64,000 nucleotides of DNA from Escherichia coli. Its GTDB lineage: Bacteria; Pseudomonadota; Gammaproteobacteria; Enterobacterales; Enterobacteriaceae. The stretch lies in NCBI RefSeq assembly GCF_022846255.1, contig NZ_AP025682.1; one strand, given 5' to 3'. The first letter of the stretch is position 1. Each line of letters opens with the position of its first letter. This document shows positions 1 to 36,113 of the stretch, one piece after another. The position numbers were made by a program, and so were the translations under genes. Under the pieces are notes generated by a model. It searched no databases and had not been told where the DNA came from. It saw only the letters and a list, made by a program, of their open reading frames with translations.

Positions 1-1468
1 TAATGGGGATCACCCGGAACAGCCCATGTTTTTTCGAGCGTTCATACACAATGGTCGGGTCAATCCCGCCAATATCCCAGCAGATACGGGATACCGACAT
101 TTCTGCACCATTCCGGCGGGTATAGGTTTTATTGATGGCCTCATCCACACGCAGCAGCGTCTGTTCATCATCGTGGCGGCCCATAATAATCTGCCGGTCA
201 ATCAGCCAGCTTTCCTCACCCGGCCCCCATCCCCATACGCGCATTTCGTAGCGATCCAGCTGGGAGTCGATACCGGCAGTCAGGTAAGCCACACGGTCAG
301 GAACGGGCGCTGAATAATGCTCTTTCCGCTCTGCCATCACTTCAGCATCCGGACGTTCACCGATTTTCGCTTCCCATGTCTCACCGAGCGTGGTGTTCAC
401 GAAGGTTTTACGTTTTCCCGTATCCCCTTTCGTTTTCATCCAGTCTTTGACAATCTGCACCCAGGTGGTGAACGGGCTGTACGCCGTCCAGATGTGAAAG
501 GTCACGCTGTCCGGCGGCTCAATCTCTTCACCGGATGACGAAAACCAGAGAATGCCATCACGGGTCCAGATCCCGGTCTTTTCGCAGATATAACGGGCAT
601 CAGTGAAGTCCAGCTCCTGCTGGCGGATGACGCAGGCATTATGTTCGCAGAGATAAAACACGCTGGCGGGATCATCCGGCGTCCATTTGAGGCCAAACGG
701 CGTCTCTTTATCGCCAAATTTAAGGTACTGCTCCTCCCCGCAGTGCGGGCAGGCAACATGAAAACGCATAAAATGCGGGGATTCACTGGCTGCACGCTCA
801 ATCTGACAGGTGCCTCTCACTTTGGGCGTGGAGCCACGGATGGACTTTGGCCAGACCGAGCCTTCAATACGCTTGTCACCCAAGAACGTCGGAGAGCCTT
901 CCTGTTCAATATCATCATCAAAGGCAGCAAGTTCATCATAACCCGCCACATCCACCGACTTTTCACGGTAGTTTTTTGCCGCTTTACCGCCCAGGCACCA
1001 GAAACCACGCCCATTGGTGAAACGCTTCATGGTGAGCGTGTTATCCCGGTGCTTTTTGCCATACCACGGGGCCAGCGCCAGCAGCGACGGAATATCGCGG
1101 ATGGTCGGCTCAACGTGGGTTTTCATAAAGTTCTCGGCATCACCATCCGTCGGCAACCAGATAAGGGTGTTGCGCTGCTTATGCTCTATGAAGTAGGCAT
1201 AAACACCCAACAGCATTTTGGAATAACCGACACGGGCAGACTTCACCACATTCACCTCGCGGATGTAGTCGCTGCCCATCGCATTCATGATGGCCCGCTG
1301 AAAGGGCAGTGTTTCCCAGCGCCCTTCCTGGTATGCGGATTCTTTCGGGAGATAGTAATTGGCATCCGCCCATTCAACGGCGGTCTGTGGCTCCGGCCTG
1401 AACAGTGAGCGAAGCCCGGCGCGGACAAAATGCCGCAGCCTGTTAACCTGACTGTTCGATATATTCAC
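1..1468 (-). CDS. A: Terminase large subunit gpA, C-terminal part cut by window edge
   Basis: Minus-strand reading from GTG at 1468 gives MNISNSQVNRLRHF...; frame at window start reads ...TIVYERSKKHGLFRVIPI, matching lambda gpA as recalled; start overlaps Nu1 end. Not in ORF track because it has no stop inside the window. Confidence 0.85.
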   Translation of the reverse strand, partial: MNISNSQVNRLRHFVRAGLRSLFRPEPQTAVEWADANYYLPKESAYQEGRWETLPFQRAIMNAMGSDYIREVNVVKSARVGYSKMLLGVYAYFIEHKQRNTLIWLPTDGDAENFMKTHVEPTIRDIPSLLALAPWYGKKHRDNTLTMKRFTNGRGFWCLGGKAAKNYREKSVDVAGYDELAAFDDDIEQEGSPTFLGDKRIEGSVWPKSIRGSTPKVRGTCQIERAASESPHFMRFHVACPHCGEEQYLKFGDKETPFGLKWTPDDPASVFYLCEHNACVIRQQELDFTDARYICEKTGIWTRDGILWFSSSGEEIEPPDSVTFHIWTAYSPFTTWVQIVKDWMKTKGDTGKRKTFVNTTLGETWEAKIGERPDAEVMAERKEHYSAPVPDRVAYLTAGIDSQLDRYEMRVWGWGPGEESWLIDRQIIMGRHDDEQTLLRVDEAINKTYTRRNGAEMSVSRICWDIGGIDPTIVYERSKKHGLFRVIPI

Positions 1469-1988
1469 TCAGCAACCCCGGTATCAGTTCATCCAGCGCG
1501 GCTGCTTTGTTCATGGCTTTGATGATATCCCGTTTCAGGAAATCAACATGTCGGTTTTCCAGTTCCGGAAAACGCCGCTGCACCGACAGGGGGATCCCGT
1601 CGAGAATACTGGCAATTTCACCTGCGATCCGCGACAGCACGAAAGTACAGAATGCAGTTTCCACCACTTCAGCGGAGTCTCTGGCATTTTTCAGCTCCTG
1701 TGCGTCGGCCTGCGCACGCGTAAGTCGATGGCGTTCGTACTCAATAGTCCCTGGCTGGAGATCTGTCTCGCTGGCCTGCCGCAGTTCTTCAACTTCCCGG
1801 CGCAGCTTTTCGTTCTCAATTTCAGCATCCCTTTCGGCATACCATTTTATGACGGCGGCAGAGTCATAAAGCACCTCATTACCCTTCCCACCGCCTCGCA
1901 GAACGGGCATTCCCTGCTCCTGCCAGTTCTGAATGGTACGGATACTCGCACCGAAAATGTCAGCCAGCTGCTTTTTGTTGACTTCCAT
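1443..1988 (-). CDS. nu1: Terminase small subunit Nu1
   Basis: ORF track 181 aa, MEVNKKQLADIFGASIRTIQNWQEQGMPVLRGGG... essentially identical to lambda Nu1 as recalled. Confidence 0.95.
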   Translation of the reverse strand: MEVNKKQLADIFGASIRTIQNWQEQGMPVLRGGGKGNEVLYDSAAVIKWYAERDAEIENEKLRREVEELRQASETDLQPGTIEYERHRLTRAQADAQELKNARDSAEVVETAFCTFVLSRIAGEIASILDGIPLSVQRRFPELENRHVDFLKRDIIKAMNKAAALDELIPGLLSEYIEQSG

Positions 1989-2149
1989 TGTTCATTCCAC
2001 GGACAAAAACAGAGAAAGGAAACGACAGAGGCTAAAAAGCCCGTTTTCAGCACCTGTCGTTTCCTTTCTTTTCAGGGGGTGTTTTAAATAAAAACATTAG
2101 GTTACGGCGAAGAAGAACGGAAACGCCTTAAACCGGAAAATTTTCATAA

Positions 2150-2190
2150 ATAGCGAAAACCCGCGCGCCTTCCGCCCCGTAGTCTGCCGG
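2150..2190. other. cos region (cosN-like) upstream of Nu1
   Basis: Minus strand reads ACGGGGCGGAAGGCGCGCGGGTTTTCGCTATTTATGAAAATTTTCCGG, colinear with the lambda cos flank except a 6-nt block. Confidence 0.5.
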
Positions 2191-2331
2191 ATTGCCGGAA
2201 AGGACCCGCCAGCCATTCGGGTTTACTTCACAATGGGATTTAATATCTGAACGACCAAAGTTGTGCGACCACGGTCGCACAGACCTGAATACACGTCCTG
2301 TTTCTTCCACCCTCGCACAGGACTGACGAGC

Positions 2332-2514
2332 ATGAGGGACAAACCCGCGCACCATAAACGCGGTAAAAACCCGGTGTGCATCGTTTTTGATTATTCCCGC
2401 ACACTCACGCAGAAGGAATTCCCTGTCGGGCTACGGTCATGGTTAATGCGGGAATACAGCGACGATACAGCGCATGATGTGTCAGGCTTGAATACCCTTA
2501 TCGAATCCCGGTAA
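2332..2514 (+). CDS. Hypothetical small protein between cos and Rha gene
   Basis: In-frame ATG with AGGA upstream inside ORF 2263..2514; protein-like composition; overlaps an alternative minus-strand ORF 2128..2355. Confidence 0.25.
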   Translation: MRDKPAHHKRGKNPVCIVFDYSRTLTQKEFPVGLRSWLMREYSDDTAHDVSGLNTLIESR

Positions 2515-3030
2515 TAAAAACTGTCCCTGTCTCTCCAGGCGTTTCAGCTTTGCAAGCAATTGAGGTTTTTTCGTTCTCCCCCAGCGATTGAGCAGGCGGC
2601 CAGACATACTGGCGACATCCTTCTCTTTCATATACTCCAGCATTATGGCGTTGCGTTCTGCTTCATAACTTTCGCTGTACTTACGGAGTTCTGCTGACAT
2701 CCAGTTAAAGGCATTTATATAGGCCTCTTTAACGGCGTCGGCTTTTGCGCCATTAAATCCCATAACCAGCATAACGAAGCCGCTAAAGTCCATGCGGTAG
2801 TAAGTCTGCTTCTTGTCGAAAATCCCTAAGCCATTGATTTTTTCGGCAACGCAAAAATGCGCTCTCCGGAAATCTTCTGAGCAATGACAATTTTTCAGCG
2901 CCCTCAATACGTCCGCGTGACGCTTACCAAAAGCCTTTGCGATTTGGAAGGTGTCAGTTACCGGCTCACCCTCTGCTGCGGTAACTAACTGGCGAAAGTC
3001 AAAATCAGAAGTCTCAATTAATTCACTCAT
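2482..3030 (-). CDS. Rha-family phage regulatory protein (putative)
   Basis: 182 aa; N-terminal ...TDTFQIAKAFGKRHADVLRALKN... resembles Rha-family DNA-binding region. Confidence 0.55.
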   Translation of the reverse strand: MSELIETSDFDFRQLVTAAEGEPVTDTFQIAKAFGKRHADVLRALKNCHCSEDFRRAHFCVAEKINGLGIFDKKQTYYRMDFSGFVMLVMGFNGAKADAVKEAYINAFNWMSAELRKYSESYEAERNAIMLEYMKEKDVASMSGRLLNRWGRTKKPQLLAKLKRLERQGQFLLPGFDKGIQA

Positions 3031-3181
3031 GTCGTATGCCTACTCTTTGAAATGAACCTTTGCCGCACAGGAAACCAGCCCACCGAGGCTCGCCAGCACT
3101 AACTGGTATCCTCAAAGGCCCATTCCAAAGGGTCAGGTTCGGTGTTTATTGTGCGCTGCGGTGCGCGGTGAAATACCGGTA

Positions 3182-3212
3182 CAAAAATGCCCCGCATCTG
3201 CGAGGCATTTTC
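3182..3212 (-). terminator. Putative intrinsic terminator downstream of Rz
   Basis: Minus strand hairpin ATGCCTCGCA-GA-TGCGGGGCAT followed by TTTTTG. Confidence 0.4.
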
Positions 3213-3248
3213 CTGAAAGTCACTTGTTAAATTTCAGTGAAATTAAAA

Positions 3249-3698
3249 TTATTTTAAGCACTGCGTCCTGATGTACTCCTGCAGGTAGTTAACCTGCGCG
3301 GTTATCCTGTCGATTCCACTTCGGAGACGGTAATAATTGAGTTCAGCATCTGCTGTAAGTCCTGGGCTTTCTCCATCGCCCATGCCGCTGGCTCCGGTCG
3401 TTGACTTTGCACAGGTGGCGGCGACTTGCAGGCGCTTACGCCCAGCAGAAACATCAGCACGGAGACTTTCAATAGTCGCGTTAGCATCAGCAAGCTCCTT
3501 TGTATATCTGGCATCGAGTTCTGCTACGTCACGTTGACGCTTCTGCATGTCAGCGATGATGGATGTGGCTTTGTCGCGCTGTTCTTTGTAGGTCATGGCG
3601 TTATCACGGTAATGATTAACAGCCCATGACAGGCAGACGATGATGCAGATAACCAGAGCGGAGATAATCGCGGTTACTCTGCTCATTGTTGCCCCCAC
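3249..3698 (-). CDS. Rz: Rz i-spanin
   Basis: 149 aa, N-terminal membrane anchor plus coiled-coil-like sequence, overlaps endolysin stop. Confidence 0.8.
3302..3487 (-). CDS. Rz1: Rz1 o-spanin lipoprotein embedded in Rz in another frame
   Basis: Embedded [23 protein letters not shown]..., lipobox VSAC, Pro-rich. Confidence 0.5.
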
Positions 3699-4180
3699 AA
3701 ACAGACTTCACGCTCAATCTCACGGCGAGCCATCAGCCCTTTCCATTGATTACCGCCAGCGTATGTCCAACGCCGTAGCTGATCACATGCGCCTTTGATA
3801 TCGCCCTGGTTTATTTTGCGAAGAAGCGTCGATGTTCTGAAATTGCCAGCGCCCACGTTGTAAACGAATGAGTAAAGAGCGCCGCGCGTTGTTTCCGGTA
3901 TATCGACTTTGATGTACGGGTTAATTTGTCTGGCGACAGTGGCAAGGTCTTTATTCAAGAGTGCTTTGCATTCTGCTTTGGTATACGTTTTACCGAGCAT
4001 GATGTCTTTTCCTGTATGCCCGTGACATACAGTCCATACACCAACAATATCTTTGTATGGTATGTAGCTGACACCTTCCAGACCATCGTTACCACCTGGG
4101 CCAGTGATTAACACTGATGCTATAGCAATTGCTCCGCCACCAATAGCAGCAGCAACGGCTTTTCGTAATGATGGAGGCAT
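3683..4180 (-). CDS. R: SAR endolysin (phage 21 R-type lysozyme)
   Basis: 165 aa; N-terminal Gly/Ala-rich signal-anchor-release segment [23 protein letters not shown] then lysozyme-like domain. Confidence 0.9.
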
Positions 4181-4395
4181 TATTCACCTCTCGCAGCCTT
4201 TCTTCTGTCTTCTCTGATTTTGAAGTACAGATTTGTCAGATAGGTGAGAAAGCCCAACACAAGGCTTCCAAGTACCCCAATCGCAGCCCACTGTGATGGA
4301 CTAACCTGATCCAACCACTGCAAAAACCAGTATCCCGCACTACCAGCGGATGTTCCGTAGGCAATGCCAGTTGAGATTTTGTCCATTGATTTCAT
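4180..4395 (-). CDS. S: Pinholin (phage 21 S-type)
   Basis: 71 aa, [30 protein letters not shown]... with dual-start motif MKSM and two TMDs, matches S21 as recalled. Confidence 0.9.
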
Positions 4396-4513
4396 AGCAA
4401 CGCCTCCGCCAGTAACGGATTGCGTAGTTCTTATATTGGGAAGGGGAAAAAAGAAGGCCGCGGCATAACTATCACTGATGAGTTCAGGATAGCCAGTGGC
4501 TACGGCTCAGTTA

Positions 4514-4589
4514 TGGTGCTGGTTAACGGACTTGAACCGCTACCCATTCGCTTACAAGGCGACTGCTCTACCATTGGAGCTAAACCAGC
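4514..4589 (-). tRNA. tRNA-like gene, anticodon TGT (Thr) by manual folding
   Basis: Cloverleaf: acceptor GCTGGTT/AACCAGC, D-arm GCTC/GAGC, anticodon loop CTTGTAA, T-arm AGCGG-TTCAAGT-CCGTT, encoded CCA; one mismatch atop the anticodon stem. Confidence 0.55.
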
Positions 4590-4594
4590 ATATT

Positions 4595-4669
4595 TGGCGG
4601 GACAGCGTGGACTCGAACCACGATAAGAAGGTTAACAGCCTTCCGTAATGACCTTTATACGACTGACCC
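4595..4669 (-). tRNA. tRNA-like gene, anticodon GTT (Asn) by manual folding
   Basis: Anticodon stem GAAGG/CCTTC, loop CTGTTAA, T-arm CGTGG-TTCGAGT-CCACG, encoded CCA; acceptor and D stems each have one mismatch. Confidence 0.5.
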
Positions 4670-4760
4670 AAATAAAAAAAGCCACCGTTGCAACTTAAGA
4701 GTCACTAACGGCAGCTTATGCCAATAGTGTTGCTCATTTGCTCAATGATGTCAACACGTT

Positions 4761-5249
4761 CTATGCTACATGTTTAATTTTCTCTACACATTTCCGATTT
4801 TTAAACGCACTATCCAGAACCGGGTGAATCATAAACAACGAGGCATTAAGGATTTCGTCAACTTCCCGTCGACAGGTTGCGAGCGATGGTTTTTGAATGC
4901 GCCCGCCGCCACGGCATAACATCTTGCGAGGTCTTGCGACGCGATGATAGTAAGATGCAATGGCGTGCTTGGAAGAGCCATGAGCGTAGTAGCTGAGGAG
5001 GATTCCAAAGGCTTTCTTGTCAATGTACATGACGGAATCGACGACCTGAGAAATCAACATTCCATCATCATCATTACACATTGGCCTTGTCATAACTCTT
5101 CCCGGCTCTACGCTCTCCATGAACTTCGCTATTACGCTGCTCATGCGCTTTTCCAGACGACCTGAATAAACCCATGCGCCCCACAGTTCAAGCCAGCCAT
5201 TCAGCCACTCATGCTGTTCTTTGGTGAGGTTTAGTTCTCTTATGCCCAC
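4761..5249 (-). CDS. Q: Late-gene antiterminator Q (phage 82/21 type, not lambda type)
   Basis: 162 aa; LELWGAWV... and ...[12 protein letters not shown]... resemble QuuD-like Q proteins; sits between nin genes and lysis cassette. Confidence 0.7.
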
Positions 5250-5911
5250 GCGCCTTCTCCCTGTACCTGAATCAATGTGAGATTTCCGCAGAACACTGCC
5301 CCAGTATCGATATACATCTGGTTGGCAAATTTGAGTGGTTTCACTGCTGGCGTATGACCAAAGATAAACGTGTCCGCGCCTTTAATTTCTTTAACGATCC
5401 CGTCTTGTGAGTTGCTGATTCGTTCGCGGTTCCAGATTACCTGCTGATGATCAACTGGCTTTCCAAATTCGTATTCGTCACAAGGATAATCGGCGTGGCA
5501 GATGACATATTTTTTACCTTTGCTCACCAGTTCGATGATTAACGGAAGTTCTTCTGCTTTATGGGCAAGAGCTTTAGCCAGAATTTCTTTGTCGTAATCG
5601 AGATTAAAGAACCAGCCACCGCCATTAAGCAGCCAGTGATTAACGTTTCCACGCTCTGATAAGCCATCAATCATCATTTGCTCATGGTTTCCACGTACAG
5701 CTCTGAACCAGGGGAATGTGATTAATTCCAGGCATTCAACGTTCTCTGCGCCACGATCAACCAAATCGCCCACCGAGATAAGCAGGTCTTTTTTGTTATC
5801 GAATCCAATCGTATCCAGTTTGTTCATCAGGTTCGTGTAGCATCCGTGCAGATCGCCAACTACCCAAATATTTCGGTATTTGCTGCCATCAATTCTTTCG
5901 TAGATATTCAT
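5240..5911 (-). CDS. ninI: NinI Ser/Thr protein phosphatase
   Basis: 223 aa, GDLHG and GNHE metallophosphatase motifs, matches lambda NinI as recalled. Confidence 0.9.
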
Positions 5912-6519
5912 GCAGCCTCACTTCTGCTGTTTCGCAGTTTTTTAAGTTTCTGTTGATACTCCGCCTTGATGGTCCTGCACTCTTCGACAGTCCAGCGATG
6001 GCGGTTATGGTTTGATTCGATTTCGTCTACTGCTTCCTGCCCGATGCGGTTAATCAGTTCGACGCGATACGGAACGAGATTTCCGCTTTTGTGCTGGTTG
6101 CACACCACGCATTGCTTGTGAATATTACGTTCATCAAATCGGAGTTGAGGCGCCGCAGCAGTTGTCCGGTAATGCCCGGCATCCCACTGAGCAGACGTGA
6201 GCGTTCCGCACGAGATACATGGTAAGTCGCGGTCTCTTTCTCTGATGAAGGCGTTTACGGCTTGTTGGGCTTGTTTAATCCAGTAACTGCGGGGCTTTAA
6301 GGCGAGTTTTCGAATCTTAAGTTTATCTTTCTGTTTCTGCTCCTCTCGTCGTCGTTTCTTCTCTGCTGCCTTTTCCGCTTTTTCGCGTTCTTTGCTTCGT
6401 CGTTCGAGTGCTATCTTGGTTCCACACTCTGGAGAGCACCACCACTGATTGGCGAATGCAGGGTGAAACCATTCCCGACATTCATCGTTTTTACATCGTC
6501 TTCGCGCTGGTTTAGCCAT
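5908..6519 (-). CDS. ninG: NinG (Rap) recombination protein
   Basis: 203 aa, [22 protein letters not shown]..., matches lambda NinG as recalled. Confidence 0.9.
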
Positions 6520-9631: not shown

Positions 9632-9672
9632 GCATTTCGGCGGGAATAAGGACCATGACTGTTAAAGAGCAA
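9632..9672 (-). promoter_or_regulatory. nutR (boxA + boxB)
   Basis: Minus strand GCTCTTTAACA (boxA) then hairpin CCCGCCGAAATGCGGG (boxB), downstream of cro. Confidence 0.6.
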
Positions 9673-9677
9673 TTTGC

Positions 9678-9863
9678 TTATGCCGCTTTGCGATAAGCAC
9701 TTTCTTGATACTTCAGGGCGCCAGCTGTAACGACTTCCAGTCGATAGGCGTCTTTCTCTGGGATGACTTCCTTCCACTGAGAGACTGCTGCATCGCTAAT
9801 GCCTAACGCTTTAGCTACCGCACGCTGGGTTCCGAAGTGGTCGATAACATCTTTCTTGTACAT
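9678..9863 (-). CDS. cro: Cro (P22 type)
   Basis: 61 aa, MYKKDVIDHFGTQRAVAKALGISDAAVSQWKEVIPEKDAYRLE... Confidence 0.9.
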   Translation of the reverse strand: MYKKDVIDHFGTQRAVAKALGISDAAVSQWKEVIPEKDAYRLEVVTAGALKYQESAYRKAA

Positions 9864-9943
9864 AGACTCGCTCCGAAATTAAAGAATACTTAAATTATCT
9901 ATCAAAGGAATCTTAAGTCAAGTTTATTTAAGATGTCTTAACT
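9864..9943. promoter_or_regulatory. OR operator region with divergent promoters
   Basis: 18-bp sites fitting the P22-type pattern ANTNAAGNNNNCTTNANT at 9878-9895 and 9926-9943, half-fit at 9901-9918. Confidence 0.65.
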
Positions 9944-10594
9944 ATGAATACACAACTGATGGGTGAGCGTATTCGCGCTCGCAGAAAAGAACTTAAGATT
10001 AGGCAGGCTGCCCTTGGCAAGATGGTTGGCGTGTCTAATGTTGCTATTTCCCAATGGGAGCGTTCTGAAACTGAGCCCAATGGCGAAAACCTATTGGCTT
10101 TAGCCAAGGCTTTACAGTGCTCCCCTGATTACTTGTTGAAAGGAGAAGATAGTCTTTCAAACATTGCCTATCACAGCAGGCATGATCCAAGAGGTTCGTA
10201 TCCTCTAATTAGTTGGGTAAGCGCAGGATGTTGGATGGAAGCTGTAGAGCCATATCATAAGCGTGCAATAGATAACTGGTACGATACAACCGTAGATTGT
10301 TCAGAAGATTCGTTTTGGCTGGACGTAAAGGGTGATTCGATGACGGCTCCAGCCGGTCTTAGCATCCCGGAAGGGATGATAATACTAGTCGATCCTGAAG
10401 TAGAACCTCGTAATGGGAAGCTGGTAGTGGCAAAGCTCGAAGGAGAAAACGAGGCAACTTTCAAGAAGTTAGTTATTGATGCTGGCAGAAGGTTTCTAAA
10501 ACCACTTAACCCACAATATCCGATGATTGAGATCAACGGGAACTGCAAAATCATCGGTGTAGTTGTCGATGCAAAAATAGCAAACCTTCCATAA
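9944..10594 (+). CDS. c2: Prophage repressor, P22 C2 type
   Basis: 216 aa, MNTQLMGERIRARRKELKIRQAALGKMVGVSNVAISQWERSE...; N-terminal HTH and C-terminal LexA/S24-like domain. Confidence 0.95.
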   Translation: MNTQLMGERIRARRKELKIRQAALGKMVGVSNVAISQWERSETEPNGENLLALAKALQCSPDYLLKGEDSLSNIAYHSRHDPRGSYPLISWVSAGCWMEAVEPYHKRAIDNWYDTTVDCSEDSFWLDVKGDSMTAPAGLSIPEGMIILVDPEVEPRNGKLVVAKLEGENEATFKKLVIDAGRRFLKPLNPQYPMIEINGNCKIIGVVVDAKIANLP

Positions 10595-10649
10595 GGGGCA
10601 TTCGCCCCTTTTTTTCTTTCCTTTAAAAATCAAAGCAAAACTTAAACTT

Positions 10650-10715
10650 CGCAATAAAATTTAAGTTTTCTTCAAAAACGCCCTTGACCAACAATTAAAG
10701 AAATCTTAAATTTAA
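10650..10715 (+). promoter_or_regulatory. pL promoter with OL operators
   Basis: TTGACC (10684-10689), 17-bp spacer, TAAATT; operator ATTAAAGAAATCTTAAAT (10694-10711) overlaps it. Confidence 0.6.
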
Positions 10716-10756
10716 GTCATCAGCAGGACGCTGGTAGCCAAACGGAACAGATTGGC

Positions 10757-10797
10757 AGGCTCTTTAACATTGATGGGATTGTCCCGCCGAAATGCGG
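10757..10797 (+). promoter_or_regulatory. nutL (boxA + boxB)
   Basis: GCTCTTTAACA then hairpin CCCGCCGAAATGCGGG, identical to the nutR elements. Confidence 0.6.
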
Positions 10798-10906
10798 GAA
10801 CCAAAGAGTAGTTGGCTTTGGGGTGACGTGAAGTGCAGCTGCACGACGGCAACCGGAAGATAAGCACCCGGCGCGTCACCGCCAAAGTCAATCATCGGAG
10901 GTCAAC

Positions 10907-11179
10907 ATGGCAGTAGTCATTACATATCTGGCTGACGATAACGCCAGAAATCGCCGCAGAGCACGCAGACAGGCTCAACGTGAGCAGGCAATGCAAGAAC
11001 AGCGACTGGCGCGAAAAATTGCGCTAAAGCTCTCTGGTTGCGTCAGAGCAGACAAAGCAGCATCACTCGGAAGCCTTCGCTGCAAGAAGGCAGATGAATG
11101 CAGTGGAAGTATTTGCCTGCCAAACGTAGCCATTTACGCGGCAGGCTACCGGAAATCAAAACAACTGACGGCGAGATGA
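10907..11179 (+). CDS. N: N-family antiterminator with arginine-rich motif
   Basis: 90 aa, ...DDNARNRRRARRQAQREQ... just downstream of nutL; segments resemble phage 21 N and P22 gp24 as recalled. Confidence 0.65.
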   Translation: MAVVITYLADDNARNRRRARRQAQREQAMQEQRLARKIALKLSGCVRADKAASLGSLRCKKADECSGSICLPNVAIYAAGYRKSKQLTAR

Positions 11180-11777: not shown

Positions 11778-11990
11778 CGGCGTTTCTCTTTTGCTCTCTG
11801 TAGGGGTGAATAGAGTTTATCCGATTTCTCGCTGTAGGGGTACATGAGAACCACCGAGCCTGATGTGGTTAAAAGACAGGCACAATCTTTACTACCGCAA
11901 TCCACTATTTAAGGTGATATATGGAAGAAGAATTTGAAGAGTTCGAAGAGCATCCTCAGGATGTGATGGAACAATACCAGGACTATCCGT

Positions 11991-12170
11991 ATGACTACGA
12001 CTATTGATACAAATCAATGGTGTGGACAATTCAAACGATGCAATGGATGCAAGCTGCAATCGGAATGCATGGTTAAGCCTGAAGAAATGTTTCCTGTAAT
12101 GGAAGATGGGAAATATGTCGATAAATGGGCAATACGAACGACGGCAATGATTGCCAGAGAACTTGGTTAA
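11991..12170 (+). CDS. ral: Ral (restriction alleviation)
   Basis: Manual translation MTTTIDTNQWCGQFKRCNGCKLQSECMVKPEEMFPVMEDGKYVDKWAIRTTAMIARELG. Confidence 0.7.
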   Translation: MTTTIDTNQWCGQFKRCNGCKLQSECMVKPEEMFPVMEDGKYVDKWAIRTTAMIARELG

Positions 12171-12373
12171 CAGAACAACAAAGCTGCCTGATAGTGGCCT
12201 TTATTTTTGGCATAAATAACAGAATAAACACTGCACCGTGTATTCATTCCAACGAGTGAATACACGGAGCAATGTCGCTCGTAACTAAACAGGAGCCGAT
12301 TTGTTCTGATTATTGGAAATCTTCTTTGCCCTCCAGTGTGAGGGCGATTTTTTATCTATGAGGATATGAATAG

Positions 12374-12742
12374 GTGTCAAACATCAAAAAATACATCATT
12401 GATTACGACTGGAAAGCATCAATTGAAATTGAAATCGACCATGACGTAATGACAGAGGAAAAACTTCACCAGATTAATAATTTCTGGTCAGACTCTGAAT
12501 ACCGACTCAATAAACACGGCTCTGTATTAAATGCTGTATTAATCATGCTGGCGCAACATGCTCTGCTTATAGCAATTTCAAGCGACTTAAATGCATATGG
12601 TGTTGTGTGTGAGTTCGACTGGAATGATGGAAATGGTCAGGAAGGATGGCCTCCAATGGATGGTAGCGAAGGAATAAGAATTACCGATATCGATACATCA
12701 GGAATATTTGATTCAGATGATATGACTATCAAGGCCGCCTGA
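12374..12742 (+). CDS. ea10: Ea10 (ssDNA-binding protein)
   Basis: 122 aa, MSNIKKYIIDYDWKASIEIEIDHDVMTEEKLHQ... Confidence 0.85.
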   Translation: MSNIKKYIIDYDWKASIEIEIDHDVMTEEKLHQINNFWSDSEYRLNKHGSVLNAVLIMLAQHALLIAISSDLNAYGVVCEFDWNDGNGQEGWPPMDGSEGIRITDIDTSGIFDSDDMTIKAA

Positions 12743-12814
12743 GTGCGGCTTTACCGCATACCAATAACGCTTCACTCGAGGCGTTTTTCGTTATGTATAA
12801 ATAAGGAGCACACC

Positions 12815-12979
12815 ATGCAATATGCCATTGCAGGGTGGCCTGTTGCTGGCTGCCCTTCCGAATCTTTACTTGAACGAATCACCCGTAAATTACGTGACGG
12901 ATGGAAACGCCTTATCGACATACTTAATCAGCCAGGAGTCCCCAAAAATGGATCAAACACTTATGGCTATCCAGACTAA
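12815..12979 (+). CDS. cIII: CIII (FtsH inhibitor)
   Basis: Internal Met of ORF 12743..12979: MQYAIAGWPVAGCPSESLLERITRKLRDGWKRLIDILNQPGVP... Confidence 0.85.
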   Translation: MQYAIAGWPVAGCPSESLLERITRKLRDGWKRLIDILNQPGVPKNGSNTYGYPD

Positions 12980-13091
12980 ATTCACTATCGCCACTTTTAT
13001 TGGCGATGAAAAGATGTTTCGTGAGGCCGTCGACGCTTATAAAAAATGGATATTAATACTGAAACTGAGATCAAGCAAAAGCATTCACTAA
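12948..13091 (+). CDS. kil: Kil
   Basis: [47 protein letters not shown] at the end of ORF 12822..13091. Confidence 0.8.
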
Positions 13092-13462
13092 CCCCCTTTC
13101 CTGTTTTCCTAATCAGCCCGGCATTTCGCGGGCGATATTTTCACAGCTATTTCAGGAGTTCAGCCATGAACGCTTATTACATTCAGGATCGTCTTGAGGC
13201 TCAGAGCTGGACGCGTCACTACCAGCAGATCGCCCGTGAAGAGAAAGAGGCAGAACTGGCAGACGACATGGAAAAAGGCCTGCCCCAGCACCTGTTTGAA
13301 TCGCTATGCATCGATCATTTGCAACGCCACGGGGCCAGCAAAAAAGCCATTACCCGTGCGTTCGATGACGATGTTGAGTTTCAGGAGCGCATGGCAGAAC
13401 ACATCCGGTACATGGTTGAAACTATTGCCCGCCACCAGGTTGATATTGATTCAGAGGTATAA
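13046..13462 (+). CDS. gam: Gam (RecBCD inhibitor)
   Basis: 138 aa, [35 protein letters not shown]... Confidence 0.95.
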
Positions 13463-13467
13463 AACGG

Positions 13468-14253
13468 ATGAGTACAGCACTCGCAACGCTGGCAGGGAAG
13501 CTGGCTGAACGTGTCGGCATGGATTCTGTCGACCCACAGGAACTGATCACCACTCTTCGCCAGACAGCATTTAAAGGCGATGCCAGCGATGCGCAGTTCA
13601 TCGCATTGCTGATCGTCGCCAACCAGTACGGCCTTAATCCGTGGACGAAAGAAATTTACGCCTTCCCTGATAAGCAGAACGGCATCGTTCCGGTGGTGGG
13701 CGTTGATGGCTGGTCCCGTATCATCAATGAAAACCAGCAGTTTGATGGCATGGACTTTGAGCAGGACAATGAATCCTGCACATGCCGGATTTACCGCAAG
13801 GACCGTAATCATCCGATCTGCGTTACCGAGTGGATGGATGAATGCCGCCGCGAACCATTCAAAACCCGCGAAGGCAGAGAAATCACGGGGCCGTGGCAGT
13901 CGCATCCCAAACGGATGTTACGTCATAAAGCCATGATTCAGTGTGCCCGTCTGGCCTTCGGATTTGCTGGTATCTATGACAAGGATGAAGCCGAGCGCAT
14001 TGTCGAAAATACCGCATACACTGTAGAACGTCAGCCGGAACGCGACATCACTCCGGTTAACGATGAAACCATGCAGGAGATTAACACTCTGCTGATCGCC
14101 CTGGATAAAACATGGGATGACGACTTATTGCCGCTCTGTTCCCAGATATTTCGCCGCGACATTCGCGCATCGTCAGAACTGACACAGGCCGAAGCAGTGA
14201 AAGCTCTTGGATTCCTGAAACAGAAAGCCACTGAGCAGAAGGTGGCAGCATGA
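13468..14253 (+). CDS. bet: Bet (Red-beta recombinase)
   Basis: 261 aa, [32 protein letters not shown]... Confidence 0.95.
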
Positions 14254-14930
14254 CACCGGACATTATCCTGCAGCGTACCGGGATCGACGTGAGAGCTGTC
14301 GAACAGGGGGATGATGCGTGGCACAAATTACGGCTCGGCGTCATCACCGCTTCAGAAGTTCACAATGTGATAGCAAAACCCCGCACCGGAAAAAAGTGGC
14401 CTGACATGAAAATGTCCTACTTTCACACCCTGCTGGCTGAGATTTGCACCGGTGTGGCTCCGGAAGTTAACGCTAAGGCGCTGGCCTGGGGAAAACAGTA
14501 CGAGAACGACGCCAGAGCCCTGTTTGAGTTTACTTCCGGCGTGAATGTTACTGAATCCCCGATCATCTATCGCGACGAAAGTATGCGCACCGCCTGCTCT
14601 CCCGATGGTTTATGCAGTGACGGCAATGGCCTTGAGCTGAAATGCCCGTTTACCTCCCGGGATTTCATGAAGTTCCGGCTCGGTGGTTTCGAGGCCATAA
14701 AATCGGCTTACATGGCCCAGGTGCAGTACAGCATGTGGGTGACGCGAAAAGATGCCTGGTACTTTGCCAACTATGACCCGCGTATGAAGCGTGAAGGCCT
14801 GCATTATGTCGTGATTGAGCAGAATGAAAAGTACATGGCGAATTTTGACGAGATGGTGCCGGAGTTCATCGAAAAAATGGACGTGGCACTGGCTGAAATT
14901 GGTTTTGTATTTGGGGAGCAATGGCGATGA
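14250..14930 (+). CDS. exo: Exo (Red-alpha exonuclease)
   Basis: 226 aa, [43 protein letters not shown]... Confidence 0.95.
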
Positions 14931-15109
14931 AGCATCCTCACGATAATATCCGGGTAGGCGCGATCACTTTCGTCTACTCCGTTACAAAGCGAGGCTGGGT
15001 ATTTCCCGGCCTTTCTGTTATCCGAAATCCCCTGAAAGCACAGCGGCTGGCTGAGGAGATAAATAATAAACGGGGAGCTGTATGCACAAAGCATCTCCCG
15101 TTGAGTTAA
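14921..15109 (+). CDS. Lambda orf60a-like small protein
   Basis: [37 protein letters not shown]... Confidence 0.6.
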
Positions 15110-15273
15110 GAACGAGTATCGAGATGGCACATAGCCTCGCTCAAATTGGAGTCAGGTTTGTGCCAATACCAGTAGAAACAGACGAAGAATTTCATACGTT
15201 AGCCGCATCCCTTTCACAAAAGCTGGAAATGATGGTGGCGAAAGCAGAAGCAGATGAGAGAGACCAGGTATGA
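15082..15273 (+). CDS. Lambda orf63-like small protein
   Basis: [38 protein letters not shown]... Confidence 0.6.
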   Translation: MHKASPVELRTSIEMAHSLAQIGVRFVPIPVETDEEFHTLAASLSQKLEMMVAKAEADERDQV

Positions 15274-15349
15274 CAACCACTGAATGCATTTTTCTGGCAG
15301 CGGGCTTCATATTCTGTGTGCTTATGCTTGCCGACATGGGGCTTGTTCA

Positions 15350-15565
15350 GTGACACCTCAGCAAGAAAACGCCCTTCGCAGCATTGCCCGTCAGGCTAAT
15401 TCTGAAATCAAAAAAGCCAGACAGCAGTTTCCGGATAAAAACGTCGATGACATTTGCCGTAGCGTACTGAAGAAGCACCGCGAAACGGTAACGCTGATGG
15501 GATTCACACCGACTCATTTAAGCCTTGCGATCGGCATGTTGAACGGCGTCTTTAAGGAACGGTGA
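15350..15565 (+). CDS. Lambda orf61-like small protein
   Basis: GTG start inside ORF 15284..15565: VTPQQENALRSIARQANSEIKKARQQFPDKNVDDICRSVLKKH... Confidence 0.5.
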   Translation: MTPQQENALRSIARQANSEIKKARQQFPDKNVDDICRSVLKKHRETVTLMGFTPTHLSLAIGMLNGVFKER

Positions 15566-15663
15566 ACATGAAAAGCAAAATCATCAGGGAGCTACAGGCT
15601 CCTTTTTTATTATTCGCATTTACCCTCAAGCGTATTAACCAACAATTCAGGGATTAATGAAAG

Positions 15664-15885
15664 ATGGCGGACATCATTGATTCAGTATCAGAAATTGAAG
15701 AATTACAGCGCAATACAGCAATAAAAATGCGTCGTCTGAACCACCAGACTATATCTGCCACTCATTGTTGTGAGTGTGGCGATCCGATAGATGAACTAAG
15801 ACGTCTGGCCGTTCAGGGTTGTCGGACTTGTGCAAGTTGCCAGGAAGATCTGGAGCTTATCAGTAAACAGAGAGGTTCGAAGTGA
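15664..15885 (+). CDS. TraR/DksA-family C4 zinc-finger protein
   Basis: 73 aa with CCECGDPIDELRR...CRTCASC four-Cys motif. Confidence 0.6.
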   Translation: MADIIDSVSEIEELQRNTAIKMRRLNHQTISATHCCECGDPIDELRRLAVQGCRTCASCQEDLELISKQRGSK

Positions 15886-19255: not shown

Positions 19256-20306
19256 GCGCCGGGATTTACCCCCTAACCTTTATATAAGAAACAATGGATA
19301 TTACTGCTACAGGGACCCAAGGACGGGTAAAGAGTTCGGATTAGGCAGAGACAGGAGGATAGCAATTACTGAAGCAATACAGGCCAATATTGAGTTACTC
19401 TCAGACAGCGGACGCAAATCACTAATAGACAGAATTAAAGGCGGTGACGCAATCACTCTTCATGTGTGGCTTGACCGATATGAAACAATCCTCACCGAAA
19501 GGGGGATCAGGCCGAAAACTCTACTCGACTACGCCAGCAAAATCAGGGCAATCCGAAGAAAATTGCCGGACAAACCGCTCACTGACATATCAACGAAAGA
19601 AGTGGCAGCAATGCTAAACACCTACGTAGCAGAAGGTAAAGCAGCTTCCGCAAAATTAATCAGGTCAACCCTTGTTGACGTTTTTCGTGAAGCAATAGCC
19701 GAGGGGCATGTGGCAACGAATCCGGTAACAGCAACCCGTACAGCAAAGTCAGAAGTAAGGCGCTCAAGGCTGACAGCTAATGAGTATGTCGAGATTTACC
19801 ATGCAGCCGAACCTCTCCCTATCTGGCTAAGGCTGGCGATGGATTTGGCCGTCGTTACAGGGCAGAGAGTCGGCGATTTGTGCAGAATGAAATGGTCAGA
19901 CATAAACGACAACCATCTTCACATTGAACAGAGTAAAACAGGGGCTAAACTCGCCATTCCGCTAACGCTAACGATTGACGCGCTCAATATCTCATTGGCT
20001 GATACACTACAGAAATGCAGGGAGGCCAGCAGCAGTGAAACTATAATCGCATCAAAGCATCACGATCCGCTTTCCCCGAAAACAGTATCAAAGTATTTTA
20101 CAAAGGCGAGAAATGCATCTGGACTCTCATTTGATGGAAACCCGCCAACATTCCATGAACTGCGTAGCCTGTCAGCGAGGCTATACCGGAACCAGATTGG
20201 CGATAAGTTTGCTCAACGTCTTCTCGGGCATAAATCAGACTCAATGGCGGCGCGGTATAGGGACAGCCGTGGACGGGAATGGGACAAAATTGAAATCGAC
20301 AAATGA
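19233..20306 (+). CDS. int: Tyrosine integrase, lambda family, HK022-like
   Basis: 357 aa; N-terminal arm-binding domain identical to lambda Int, central and catalytic domains diverged; RSLSARLY and HKSD motifs. Confidence 0.95.
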   Translation: MGRRRSHERRDLPPNLYIRNNGYYCYRDPRTGKEFGLGRDRRIAITEAIQANIELLSDSGRKSLIDRIKGGDAITLHVWLDRYETILTERGIRPKTLLDYASKIRAIRRKLPDKPLTDISTKEVAAMLNTYVAEGKAASAKLIRSTLVDVFREAIAEGHVATNPVTATRTAKSEVRRSRLTANEYVEIYHAAEPLPIWLRLAMDLAVVTGQRVGDLCRMKWSDINDNHLHIEQSKTGAKLAIPLTLTIDALNISLADTLQKCREASSSETIIASKHHDPLSPKTVSKYFTKARNASGLSFDGNPPTFHELRSLSARLYRNQIGDKFAQRLLGHKSDSMAARYRDSRGREWDKIEIDK

Positions 20307-20400
20307 TTTTATTTTGACTAATAATGACCTGCCTACATTAATTCATTGATAATAAAAGAGATTTTAAATATACAACTTATTCACCTAAAGTGCACCGACC
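20307..20400. other. Approximate prophage-chromosome junction (attL)
   Basis: AT-rich 94 bp between int stop and torS start; core not located at nucleotide resolution. Confidence 0.35.
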
Positions 20401-35807: not shown

Positions 35808-35895
35808 GCGTCATTCCGGAAGTGTGGCCGAGCGGTTGAAGGCACCGGTCTTGAAAACCGGCGACCCGAAAGGGTTCCAGAGTTCGAATCTCTGC
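35808..35895 (+). tRNA. serT: tRNA-Ser (anticodon TGA)
   Basis: GGAAGTGTGGCCGAGCGGTTGAAGGCACCGGTCTTGAAAACCGGCGACCCGAAAGGGTTCCAGAGTTCGAATCTCTGCGCTTCCGCCA, long variable arm. Confidence 0.95.
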
Positions 35896-36113
35896 GCTTC
35901 CGCCAAATAAGATAAGGGGTTAGCTAAATGCTAACCCCTTTTTCTTTTGCCTGTCGAAATTCTCAGGGCGTTATATCACTGCCTAATGACCTGAGACTCC
36001 GCTGTGAAACTTGTTTCAGATCAAATGCGTAAAGATGGGTAAAACTTCTGTGTACCTTCCCACATTATCATTATGCTGCTTCATTAATAACATCTGTCAT
36101 AGAGAGTGACTCA

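What the first reader, a model, noticed from the sequence alone, without database searches (positions are those of the whole stretch)
3249..4395. Lysis cassette is phage-21 type (pinholin plus SAR endolysin) joined to lambda-type terminase and a Q of the phage 82/21 type
The holin has the MKSM dual-start and two-TMD layout of a pinholin. The endolysin starts with a Gly/Ala-rich signal-anchor-release segment rather than being a cytoplasmic lambda R transglycosylase. Rz and Rz1 are embedded as expected. This is a known system; the only point of interest is the mosaic junctions.
Basis: partly seen in the sequence, partly recalled or inferred. Interest (0 to 1): 0.2.

Follow-up and report, generated by a model that had tools for sequence, protein, structure and literature searches.

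The report
Phage-21-type pinholin lysis cassette, mosaic prophage
This is an ordinary, already well-understood cell-bursting gene set of a lambda-like virus resident in an E. coli chromosome, made of the phage 21 membrane-depolarising holin and membrane-tethered lysozyme, with outer-membrane-disrupting genes borrowed from a P22-like phage and DNA-packaging genes of the lambda type.

Summary
Window 3249-4395 holds four genes:
- S (4180-4395) is 71/71 identical to the phage 21 pinholin/antiholin.
- R (3683-4180) is 160/165 identical to the SAR endolysin R21, whose structure is solved.
- Rz is at 3249-3686.
- Rz1 (3302-3487) is embedded in the +1 frame of Rz.

Upstream is a phage 21 late-control module. 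It comprises Q (160/162 to Q21), the pR'/Q-binding element/terminator (1 nt different) and tRNA-Asn and tRNA-Thr. Downstream, Nu1 (179/181) and gpA (486/489 of the part in the window) are lambda-type with lambda-type cosB.

Three corrections apply:
- Rz/Rz1 are not the phage 21 allele. A crossover inside Rz (3609-3583) joins a 21-type membrane anchor to a P22-type periplasmic domain with its cognate Rz1. A P22-type rha gene follows.
- Q belongs to the Q21 family only. Q82 is an unrelated family.
- The cassette is separated from the terminase by about 1.26 kb, and the cohesive-end site is a natural variant.

The same arrangement occurs in other E. coli prophages, and the exact proteins are already in GenBank. 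Already known; low interest.

The parts
4761..5249 (-). Q antiterminator, Q21 family, 162 aa, GTG start
   Evidence: 160/162 identical to Q21 (PDB 6JNX, 6P18). Pfam PF06530 8.6e-25. The GTG start is seen.
4670..4754 (-). Late promoter pR' of phage 21 type. Contains -35 TTGACA (4754-4749), QBE ATTGAGCAAATGAGCA (4746-4731), TSS (~4719), sigma-dependent pause element (4718-4712) and terminator tR' (4717-4670).
   Evidence: Identical to the annotated phage 21 elements except one C->G at 4722. Coordinates were transferred from the phage 21 annotation through alignment A1.
4595..4669 (-). tRNA-Asn (GUU)
   Evidence: ARAGORN; Rfam tRNA. Same gene and position as in phage 21.
4514..4589 (-). tRNA-Thr (UGU)
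   Evidence: ARAGORN; Rfam tRNA. Same as phage 21.
4180..4395 (-). S: the antiholin S71 starts at Met1 (4395). The pinholin S68 starts at Met4 (4386).
   Evidence: 71/71 identical to S21. PF04971 8.6e-36. Hydropathy. The upstream 70 nt is identical to phage 21.
3683..4180 (-). R: SAR endolysin (GH24 lysozyme), 165 aa. Its start overlaps the S stop by 1 nt (TAATG).
   Evidence: 160/165 identical to R21 (3HDE/3HDF) and 162/165 to RrrD (4ZPU). E35, D44 and T50 are present and there is no Cys in the SAR segment.
3249..3686 (-). Rz i-spanin, 145 aa. It is a chimera: 21/lambda-type N-terminal TMD joined to a P22-type periplasmic domain. It has an ATGA overlap with R.
   Evidence: PF03245 4.6e-35. 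55% identical to 21 Rz and 132/145 to P22 gp15. The crossover is mapped.
3302..3487 (-). Rz1 o-spanin lipoprotein, 61 aa, embedded in the +1 frame of Rz
   Evidence: PF06085 4e-20. 58/61 identical to P22 Rz1, with the mature part identical. SD AAGGAG and lipobox VSAC read from the sequence.
3583..3609 (-). Crossover zone from phage 21-type to P22-type sequence, inside Rz
   Evidence: The last 21-specific informative site is 3609 and the first P22-specific site is 3583.
5247..5262 (-). Junction from lambda-type ninI to the Q21 module, in the shared sequence AGGGAGAAGGCGC(A/G)TG
   Evidence: The lambda record marks a recombination point at the same place.
2482..3030 (-). rha-like gene (Rha + ORF11CD3 domains) in the position where lambda and phage 21 carry bor
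   Evidence: Pfam; TIGR02681. Shares 157 identical residues with P22 Rha. DNA is 94.6% identical to P22 over 3652-2561.
2166..2177 (-). cosN cohesive-end position; reads GGGCGGAAGGCG instead of GGGCGGCGACCT
   Evidence: Alignment to lambda, phage 21 and the prophage of strain 82.0311.
1989..2165 (-). cosB of lambda type (R3-I1-R2-R1 region)
   Evidence: 97.7% identical to lambda from lambda position 13 onward and unlike phage 21.
1443..1988 (-). Nu1 small terminase, lambda type
   Evidence: 179/181 identical to lambda Nu1 and 52% to phage 21 gp1. PF07471 3.9e-101.
1..1468 (-). gpA large terminase, first 489 codons (runs off the window)
   Evidence: 486/489 identical to lambda gpA. DNA is 70% identical to the phage 21 gene.

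Best explanation
This is the late-lysis module of a lambdoid prophage in an E. coli chromosome. It works by the pinholin/SAR-endolysin pathway established for phage 21.

Q21-type antiterminator loads onto RNA polymerase paused at the pR' Q-binding element. The polymerase then reads through tR' and the two tRNA genes into S-R-Rz/Rz1 and on into the packaging genes.

S is translated from two starts. Met4 gives the pinholin S68. Met1 gives the antiholin S71, whose extra Lys2 holds TMD1 in the membrane.

R is exported by Sec and stays tethered, inactive, by its weakly hydrophobic N-terminal signal-anchor-release segment.

At a programmed time TMD1 of the pinholin leaves the bilayer and TMD2 oligomerises into small pinholes. 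These collapse the proton-motive force. The SAR segment of R is then released and R refolds into an active lysozyme (E35/D44/T50) that degrades the murein.

The Rz/Rz1 spanin complex then disrupts the outer membrane.

Shown here: the gene identities, their order and overlaps, and the conservation of the regulatory DNA. Inferred from work on phage 21, lambda and P22: the mechanism itself.

Evolutionarily the locus is a patchwork:
- A phage 21-like backbone (exo..ral, O..ninG, Q..R).
- A lambda-type ninI.
- A P22-type distal Rz/Rz1/rha.
- A lambda-type cosB/Nu1/A.

The pieces are joined at short conserved sequences at or inside gene boundaries.
For: - S is 71/71 identical to S21, R 160/165 to R21, and Q 160/162 to Q21.
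- Pfam assigns P21 holin S, Phage_lysozyme, Rz, Rz1, antitermQ and Nu1.
- The pR'/QBE/SDPE/tR'/tRNA region differs from annotated phage 21 at 1 nt up to tRNA-Asn.
- The hydropathy layout shows a weak uncharged TMD1, a strong TMD2 with a glycine zipper, and a Gly/Ala-rich SAR segment in R. The catalytic triad is present and the SAR segment has no Cys.
- Rz1 is embedded in the +1 frame at 0.45-0.88 of Rz with an SD and a lipobox. This matches the typical geometry in the spanin survey (PMC6139136).
- The mechanism is described in PMC9636201 and the Q families in PMC9388147.
- Mosaic blocks and junctions are mapped.
- The same arrangement occurs at 97.5% identity in E. coli 82.0311, and 22 complete E. 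coli genomes cover at least 80% of window 1-6000.
- Free phage IdasGreatGrand is collinear with window 4426-1 (S to gpA) at 91.5% identity, though its cosB is 21-type.
- The exact proteins are deposited as BDH33952-BDH33955.
Against: - Nothing contradicts the assignment.
- No experiment was done here, and no dedicated topology predictor (TMHMM/Phobius) was available. Topology rests on hydropathy and identity to studied proteins.
- R has five substitutions relative to R21 (S29G, M98T, K144N, T150A, I160V) whose effect is untested.
- Q starts with GTG, and there is one substitution (4722) between the QBE and the transcription start.
- Whether the prophage as a whole is inducible is unknown, because the window ends inside gene A.
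Confidence: 0.95

Rival explanations
1. The cassette is a decaying or domesticated remnant like DLP12 essD-rrrD-rzpD of E. coli K-12. It would be retained in a defective prophage and would no longer serve phage release.
For: R is slightly closer to the DLP12 lysozyme RrrD (162/165) than to R21 (160/165). PGAP names homologues 'lysozyme RrrD'. Q has a GTG start, and the window does not show the whole prophage.
Against: Every gene from exo to gpA that was examined is intact and collinear with functional phages. The regulatory DNA is conserved to the base. Integrase and excisionase genes are annotated in the 97.4% identical collinear prophage of strain SCU-301 at its torS-proximal end. This part of the window itself was not annotated. 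The GTG start is shared with another strain. This rival would not change what the cassette is, only whether it is still used.
Confidence: 0.12
2. A canonical lambda-type lysis system: a large-hole class I holin plus a soluble cytoplasmic endolysin.
For: It lies in a lambda-like genome context with a lambda-type terminase.
Against: S is 20% and R 21% identical to lambda S and R in forced global alignments. S has two hydrophobic or uncharged segments, not three. R has an N-terminal hydrophobic segment that lambda R lacks. R belongs to the GH24 lysozyme family, not the lambda transglycosylase family.
Confidence: 0.01
3. The endolysin is a SAR endolysin of the P1 Lyz type. In that type, activation depends on a disulfide exchange involving a cysteine in the SAR segment, not on R21-type refolding.
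For: Both belong to the same lysozyme family. P1 Lyz (1XJT/1XJU) is a distant PDB hit.
Against: There is no cysteine in residues 1-51, so none in the SAR segment (Cys at 52, 71, 132 and 160 only). R is 97% identical to R21 but matches P1 Lyz only at E about 1e-7.
Confidence: 0.02

Closest known systems
Phage 21 late module (Q21, pR', tRNA-Asn/Thr, S21 pinholin/antiholin, R21 SAR endolysin; GenBank OL657228)
   Same: Same genes, order, overlaps and regulatory elements. S is 100% identical, R 97% and Q 98.8%. DNA is about 96.6% identical from Q to the first ~100 nt of Rz.
   Different: - The Rz periplasmic domain and Rz1 belong to another spanin family (55% and ~33% identity).
- Phage 21 has bor and a TonB-like gene downstream, whereas this locus has rha.
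- Phage 21 has its own terminase/cosB specificity (Nu1 52% identical).
- Phage 21 lacks ninI and keeps a ninH stub.
- Phage 21 integrates in icd, this prophage next to torS.
DLP12 cryptic prophage lysis genes of E. coli K-12 (essD, rrrD, rzpD/rzoD); RrrD structure 4ZPU
   Same: R is 162/165 identical to RrrD. It is the same pinholin-type cassette.
   Different: DLP12 is a defective remnant (my own knowledge). Here the cassette sits in an apparently complete late region with Q21 and a terminase.
Salmonella phage P22 genes 15 (Rz), Rz1 and rha
   Same: Rz is 132/145 identical and Rz1 58/61, with the mature lipoprotein identical. The rha gene is adjacent. DNA is 94.6% identical over window 3652-2561. 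P22 Rz1 belongs to the HK97 o-spanin family, distinct from the Lambda family (PMC6139136).
   Different: - P22 pairs these genes with a lambda-S-like class I holin (gp13) and a soluble lysozyme (gp19), and with a pac-type terminase.
- The first ~26 codons of Rz here follow phage 21, not P22.
Shigella phage SfI and Escherichia phage IdasGreatGrand; prophage of E. coli 82.0311
   Same: - SfI shares Q21-tRNAs-S-R and the same 5' crossover in Rz (96.9% identical, no gaps, to window 3423).
- IdasGreatGrand is collinear with window 4426-1 (S to gpA) at 91.5%.
- The 82.0311 prophage is collinear at 97-98%.
   Different: - SfI diverges in distal Rz and has an HNH/other packaging region.
- IdasGreatGrand has 21-type cosB and canonical cosN.
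- 82.0311 carries an extra TonB-like segment and canonical cosN.
Lambda terminase/cos (Nu1, A, cosB)
   Same: Nu1 is 179/181 identical and gpA 486/489. cosB and cosQ are lambda-like. DNA is 97.7% identical from lambda position 13.
   Different: The 12-nt cohesive-end sequence differs at 5 of its last 6 bases.

Membership tests
Pinholin, phage 21 S type (class II holin, Pfam PF04971) | Sequence membership in the P21 holin S family | tested here: met
   PF04971 at 8.6e-36 against a cut-off of 26 bits. 71/71 identical to S21.
Pinholin, phage 21 S type (class II holin, Pfam PF04971) | Two transmembrane segments. TMD1 is weakly hydrophobic and SAR-like. TMD2 is strongly hydrophobic and carries the GxxxSxxxG zipper. 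| tested here: met
   Residues 8-28 are uncharged, KD 0.33, 57% G/A/S/T. Residues 36-57 have KD 1.44 and contain G40, S44 and G48. This is hydropathy only; no dedicated topology predictor was available.
Pinholin, phage 21 S type (class II holin, Pfam PF04971) | Dual-start motif that gives an antiholin with an extra N-terminal positive charge | tested here: met
   Met1-Lys2-Ser3-Met4. The start region and the 70 nt upstream are identical to phage 21.
Pinholin, phage 21 S type (class II holin, Pfam PF04971) | Forms small (~2 nm, heptameric) holes that depolarise the membrane but do not pass folded endolysin | not testable with these tools
   Inferred from 100% identity to S21, for which this is reported (PMC9636201).
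SAR endolysin, R21 type (GH24 lysozyme) | Lysozyme domain with the catalytic Glu-8aa-Asp-5aa-Thr triad | tested here: met
   PF00959 at 4e-45. E35, D44 and T50 are present.
SAR endolysin, R21 type (GH24 lysozyme) | N-terminal signal-anchor-release segment: a short basic N-terminus followed by about 19 weakly hydrophobic Gly/Ala-rich residues, with no cleavage site | tested here: met
   MPPSLRK followed by [21 protein letters not shown] 2.11, 63% G/A/S/T, Wimley-White dG +0.3 kcal/mol. Residues 1-28 are identical to R21, whose full-length inactive and released active forms are solved (3HDE, 3HDF).
SAR endolysin, R21 type (GH24 lysozyme) | No cysteine in the SAR segment, which distinguishes R21-type refolding from P1 Lyz-type disulfide caging | tested here: met
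   Cys only at positions 52, 71, 132 and 160.
Phage 21/lambda Rz-Rz1 spanin allele | Close identity of the Rz periplasmic domain and Rz1 to the phage 21 proteins | tested here: not met
   Rz is 55% and the Rz1 ORF 23/70 identical to phage 21, and there is a 21-nt deletion. Only the TMD-coding part is 21-type.
Embedded two-component spanin, P22/HK97 family | i-spanin with an N-terminal TMD. The o-spanin lipoprotein lies wholly inside the i-spanin gene in another frame. High identity to P22 gp15/Rz1. | tested here: met
   Rz TMD at residues 4-20, KD 2.88. Rz1 is in the +1 frame at 0.45-0.88 L, with lipobox VSA|C and a Pro-rich mature part. 132/145 and 58/61 identical to the P22 proteins.
Q21 family of late antiterminators (Pfam PF06530) | Sequence membership and a cognate QBE/pause element at pR' | tested here: met
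   PF06530 at 8.6e-25. 160/162 identical to Q21 structures. QBE ATTGAGCA/AATGAGCA and the SDPE are conserved.
Q82 family (Pfam PF06323) | Sequence membership | tested here: not met
   No PF06323 hit at E<=0.01. The three Q families show no sequence similarity to each other (PMC9388147).
Lambda-specificity terminase/cos | Lambda-type Nu1 and gpA with lambda-type cosB | tested here: met
   Nu1 is 179/181 identical to lambda and 52% to phage 21. gpA is 486/489. The cosB alignment is lambda-like.
Lambda-specificity terminase/cos | Canonical cosN GGGCGGCGACCT | tested here: not met
   The window has GGGCGGAAGGCG. The variant recurs in 68 IMG/VR contigs and in the deposited complete genome of phage PhiR46_1.

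The most novel reading that the evidence does not exclude
The least ordinary reading still open has two parts.

First, the intragenic 21/P22 crossover in Rz may be a natural experiment. It would show that the spanin membrane anchor is freely exchangeable while the periplasmic domain and its embedded Rz1 partner travel as one unit.

Second, a terminase 99% identical to lambda's may here serve a cosN whose right half differs at 5 of 6 bases. That would imply relaxed or asymmetric sequence requirements for nicking.

Both features are real in the sequence. Both are widespread in other genomes and probably already described, since cosN natural variation was surveyed by Vahanian et al. 2017, which I could not read.
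Probability: 0.15. Interest if true: 0.25.

Novelty: already known. Interest (0 to 1): 0.08.

Why it matters
It matters little beyond correct annotation. It confirms that the prophage carries a textbook pinholin/SAR-endolysin system. It also gives base-level positions for four module junctions: ninG/ninI, ninI/Q, inside Rz, and rha-to-cos. These illustrate the standard picture of lambdoid mosaicism, with exchange at short conserved linkers and with interacting partners (Rz periplasmic domain plus Rz1; Q plus its QBE; Nu1 plus cosB) kept together.

Tried and rejected
- The simple sigma-70/terminator consensus scan did not pick up pR' or tR'. I relied instead on base-level identity to the curated phage 21 annotation.
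- A Kyte-Doolittle threshold of 1.0 missed TMD1 of S. This fits its known weak hydrophobicity. A direct segment calculation was used instead. No TMHMM-type predictor was available.
- NCBIfam has no models hitting S, Rz, Rz1 or Q, so it was uninformative.
- Rfam found only the two tRNAs and the cIII thermoregulator, with no other RNA in the cassette.
- Searching for lambda cosN with one mismatch found no cos. This led to reading the region directly and finding the variant.
- A literature string search for the variant cosN returned only an unrelated plant paper. The relevant cosN survey (PMID 28646648) is not held.
- I looked for gpA/Nu1 residues that co-vary with the cosN variant and found none in the 489 residues available.
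- + strand ORFs inside 3249-4395 (30-67 aa) are antisense to conserved genes. They were not examined beyond the ORF list and are assumed to be non-genes.
- The GTG at 3698 was rejected as the Rz start in favour of the ATG at 3686.

Full report
**What is at the coordinates**

The interval 3249-4395 contains four overlapping genes, all on the minus strand.
- S is at 4180-4395 (71 aa).
- R is at 3683-4180 (165 aa). Its ATG shares one base with the S stop (TAATG).
- Rz is at 3249-3686 (145 aa). It overlaps R by ATGA.
- Rz1 is at 3302-3487 (61 aa). It lies wholly inside Rz in the +1 frame.

Pfam assigns these to 'Bacteriophage P21 holin S' (8.6e-36), Phage_lysozyme (4e-45), Rz (4.6e-35) and Rz1 (4e-20). 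The ORF finder extends Rz to a GTG at 3698. Homologues and the RefSeq annotation of a near-identical prophage start at the ATG.

**The holin**

S is 71/71 identical to phage 21 S.
- It starts Met-Lys-Ser-Met. This is the dual-start motif that gives the antiholin S71 and the pinholin S68.
- Residues 8-28 form an uncharged stretch that is only weakly hydrophobic (mean Kyte-Doolittle 0.33, 57% Gly/Ala/Ser/Thr).
- Residues 36-57 are clearly hydrophobic (1.44) and carry G40xxxS44xxxG48.
- The C-terminal tail is highly charged.
- The 70 nt before the start codon are identical to phage 21.

The pinhole mechanism is taken from the literature (PMC9636201). It involves heptameric channels of about 2 nm that collapse the proton-motive force.

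**The endolysin**

R is 160/165 identical to R21. The membrane-tethered inactive form (3HDE) and the released active form (3HDF) of R21 are both solved. R is also 162/165 identical to the DLP12 lysozyme RrrD (4ZPU).
- Residues 1-28 are identical to R21.
- A basic MPPSLRK is followed by [19 protein letters not shown] (63% Gly/Ala/Ser/Thr). The Wimley-White transfer energy is about zero, so the segment is marginal for stable membrane insertion.
- The catalytic residues E35, D44 and T50 are present.
- There is no cysteine before position 52, so this is the R21 type and not the P1 Lyz disulfide-caged type.
- Lambda R shows no hydrophobic span and is 21% identical in a forced alignment.

**The spanins are not the phage 21 allele**

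Rz is only 55% identical to the Rz of phage 21 or lambda. The N-terminal membrane anchor is identical, but the periplasmic domain has diverged and lacks 7 codons. The Rz1 ORF shares 23 of 70 aligned positions.

Against P22, Rz is 132/145 identical to gp15 and Rz1 is 58/61 identical. The mature lipoprotein is identical.

At the DNA level, P22 homology (94.6%) runs from 3652 to 2561 and includes the next gene, rha. Informative sites put the switch from phage 21-type to P22-type sequence between 3609 and 3583. This is just after the anchor-coding segment.

The published spanin survey places P22 Rz1 in the HK97 o-spanin family and lambda Rz1 in a separate Lambda family (PMC6139136). Phage 21 Rz1 is near-identical to lambda Rz1. 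The window's Rz1 has these features:
- It starts at 0.45 and ends at 0.88 of Rz, the typical geometry in that survey.
- AAGGAG lies 7 nt before its ATG.
- Its lipobox is GVSA|C.

**Upstream: a complete phage 21 late-control module**

Q (4761-5249) is 160/162 identical to Q21 (PDB 6JNX, 6P18) and hits PF06530. According to PMC9388147, Q21 (PF06530), Q-lambda (PF03589) and Q82 (PF06323) are three families without sequence similarity. 'Phage 82/21 type' should therefore read 'phage 21 type'.

Between Q and S, the following elements all match the curated phage 21 annotation:
- the -35 element
- the bipartite Q-binding element ATTGAGCA/AATGAGCA
- the transcription start
- the sigma-dependent pause element
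- tR'
- tRNA-Asn
- tRNA-Thr

The only difference before tRNA-Asn is one C->G change at 4722.

**Downstream: lambda-type packaging, reached indirectly**

After Rz comes the P22-type rha gene (2482-3030; Rha plus ORF11CD3 domains). Lambda and phage 21 carry bor in this position. About 300 nt of poorly conserved spacer follows, then cos.

From lambda position 13 onward the window is 97.7% identical to lambda.
- cosB is lambda-like and unlike phage 21.
- Nu1 is 179/181 identical to lambda and 52% to the phage 21 small subunit.
- The 489 codons of gpA in the window are 486/489 identical to lambda.

**Other junctions**

The lambda-type ninI (5240-5911) is absent from phage 21. It joins the Q21 module in a shared 15-nt sequence, AGGGAGAAGGCGC, at 5247-5262. 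The lambda record marks a recombination point at the same spot.

ninH is absent, and ninG and ninI overlap by ATGA.

Further left in phage orientation, several regions can be compared with phage 21:
- exo-to-ral is 96.7% identical.
- O-to-ninG is 97.9% identical.
- The immunity region is only 86% identical.

The backbone is therefore phage 21-like, with lambda-type and P22-type patches.

The prophage ends next to torS at about window 20,300-20,400.

**How common it is**

- The exact R, Rz and Q proteins are deposited from an E. coli chromosome of 4.94 Mb as BDH33953, BDH33952 and BDH33955.
- The exact S sequence occurs on at least 1000 contigs and is UniProt HOLIN_BPP21.
- 342 phage records match the cassette.
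- 22 complete E. coli genomes carry at least 80% of window 1-6000 in one place. The best is strain 82.0311, at 97.5%.
- Free phage IdasGreatGrand is collinear with window 4426-1 (S to gpA) at 91.5% identity.

**Verdict**

- The genes are on the minus strand.
- Rz/Rz1/rha are P22-type.
- Q belongs to the Q21 family, not Q82.
- The join to the terminase is indirect.

The system is already known. Its mechanism is inferred with high confidence from near-identity to experimentally dissected proteins. Interest is low.

The only mildly unusual by-product is the cosN variant, described under things noticed in passing.

Noticed in passing
window 2166-2177 (minus strand), with flanks 2178-2196: The cohesive-end site reads GGGCGGAAGGCG instead of the GGGCGGCGACCT shared by lambda, phage 21 and the 82.0311 prophage (5 of the last 6 bases differ). 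cosQ, cosB, Nu1 and gpA remain lambda-type. The exact 28-mer occurs in 68 IMG/VR contigs. Most of these have a lambda-like Nu1, and some have other Nu1 types. It also occurs in the deposited complete genome of phage PhiR46_1. No gpA or Nu1 residue in the visible part co-varies with it. Natural cosN variation was surveyed by Vahanian et al. 2017, which I could not read.
   Followed up: partly
window 5247-5249 and 5240-5249: An A->G change turns the Q start codon from ATG to GTG. The same change turns the ninI stop TGA into TGG, extending NinI by two residues (..GEGAWA). The identical sequence is present in E. coli 82.0311, so this is a shared allele and not an error. A weaker start might lower Q synthesis.
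   Followed up: partly
window 5902-5911: ninH is absent. ninG and a lambda-type ninI (Ser/Thr phosphatase) are joined by an ATGA overlap. Lambda has ninH between them. Phage 21 has only a 10-codon ninH stub and no ninI.
   Followed up: yes
window 4722: A single C->G difference from phage 21 and SfI lies between the Q-binding element and the late transcription start. All annotated elements themselves are unchanged.
   Followed up: no
window 2482-3030 (minus strand): A Rha-family regulator gene with a C-terminal ORF11CD3 domain sits between the lysis genes and cos, where lambda and phage 21 carry bor. It shares 157 identical residues with P22 Rha but has a different C-terminal tail. P22 homology stops at 2561.
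   Followed up: partly
window 9648-11098 and 11897-15875: The immunity region (N, cI, cro) is only about 86% identical to imm21, while the flanking Red/ral region is 96.7% identical to phage 21. This may be a related but distinct immunity specificity.
   Followed up: no
window about 20,306-20,400: The prophage integrase end abuts torS, as in E. coli SCU-301, where torS is annotated as frameshifted. The rest of the window (hya, app, csp, gfc/etk, tRNA-Ser at 35818-35905) is E. coli chromosome, about 97-98% identical to the reference genomes.
   Followed up: partly
window 12802-12860 (+ strand): Rfam finds the lambda cIII thermoregulator RNA element (88.5 bits). This fits a leftward early operon on the + strand.
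   Followed up: no
window 3683-4180 (R protein positions 29, 98, 144, 150, 160): R differs from R21 by S29G, M98T, K144N, T150A and I160V. T98 and V160 are shared with RrrD. G29 lies just after the SAR segment. This exact sequence was seen on a single contig in the protein collection.
   Followed up: no
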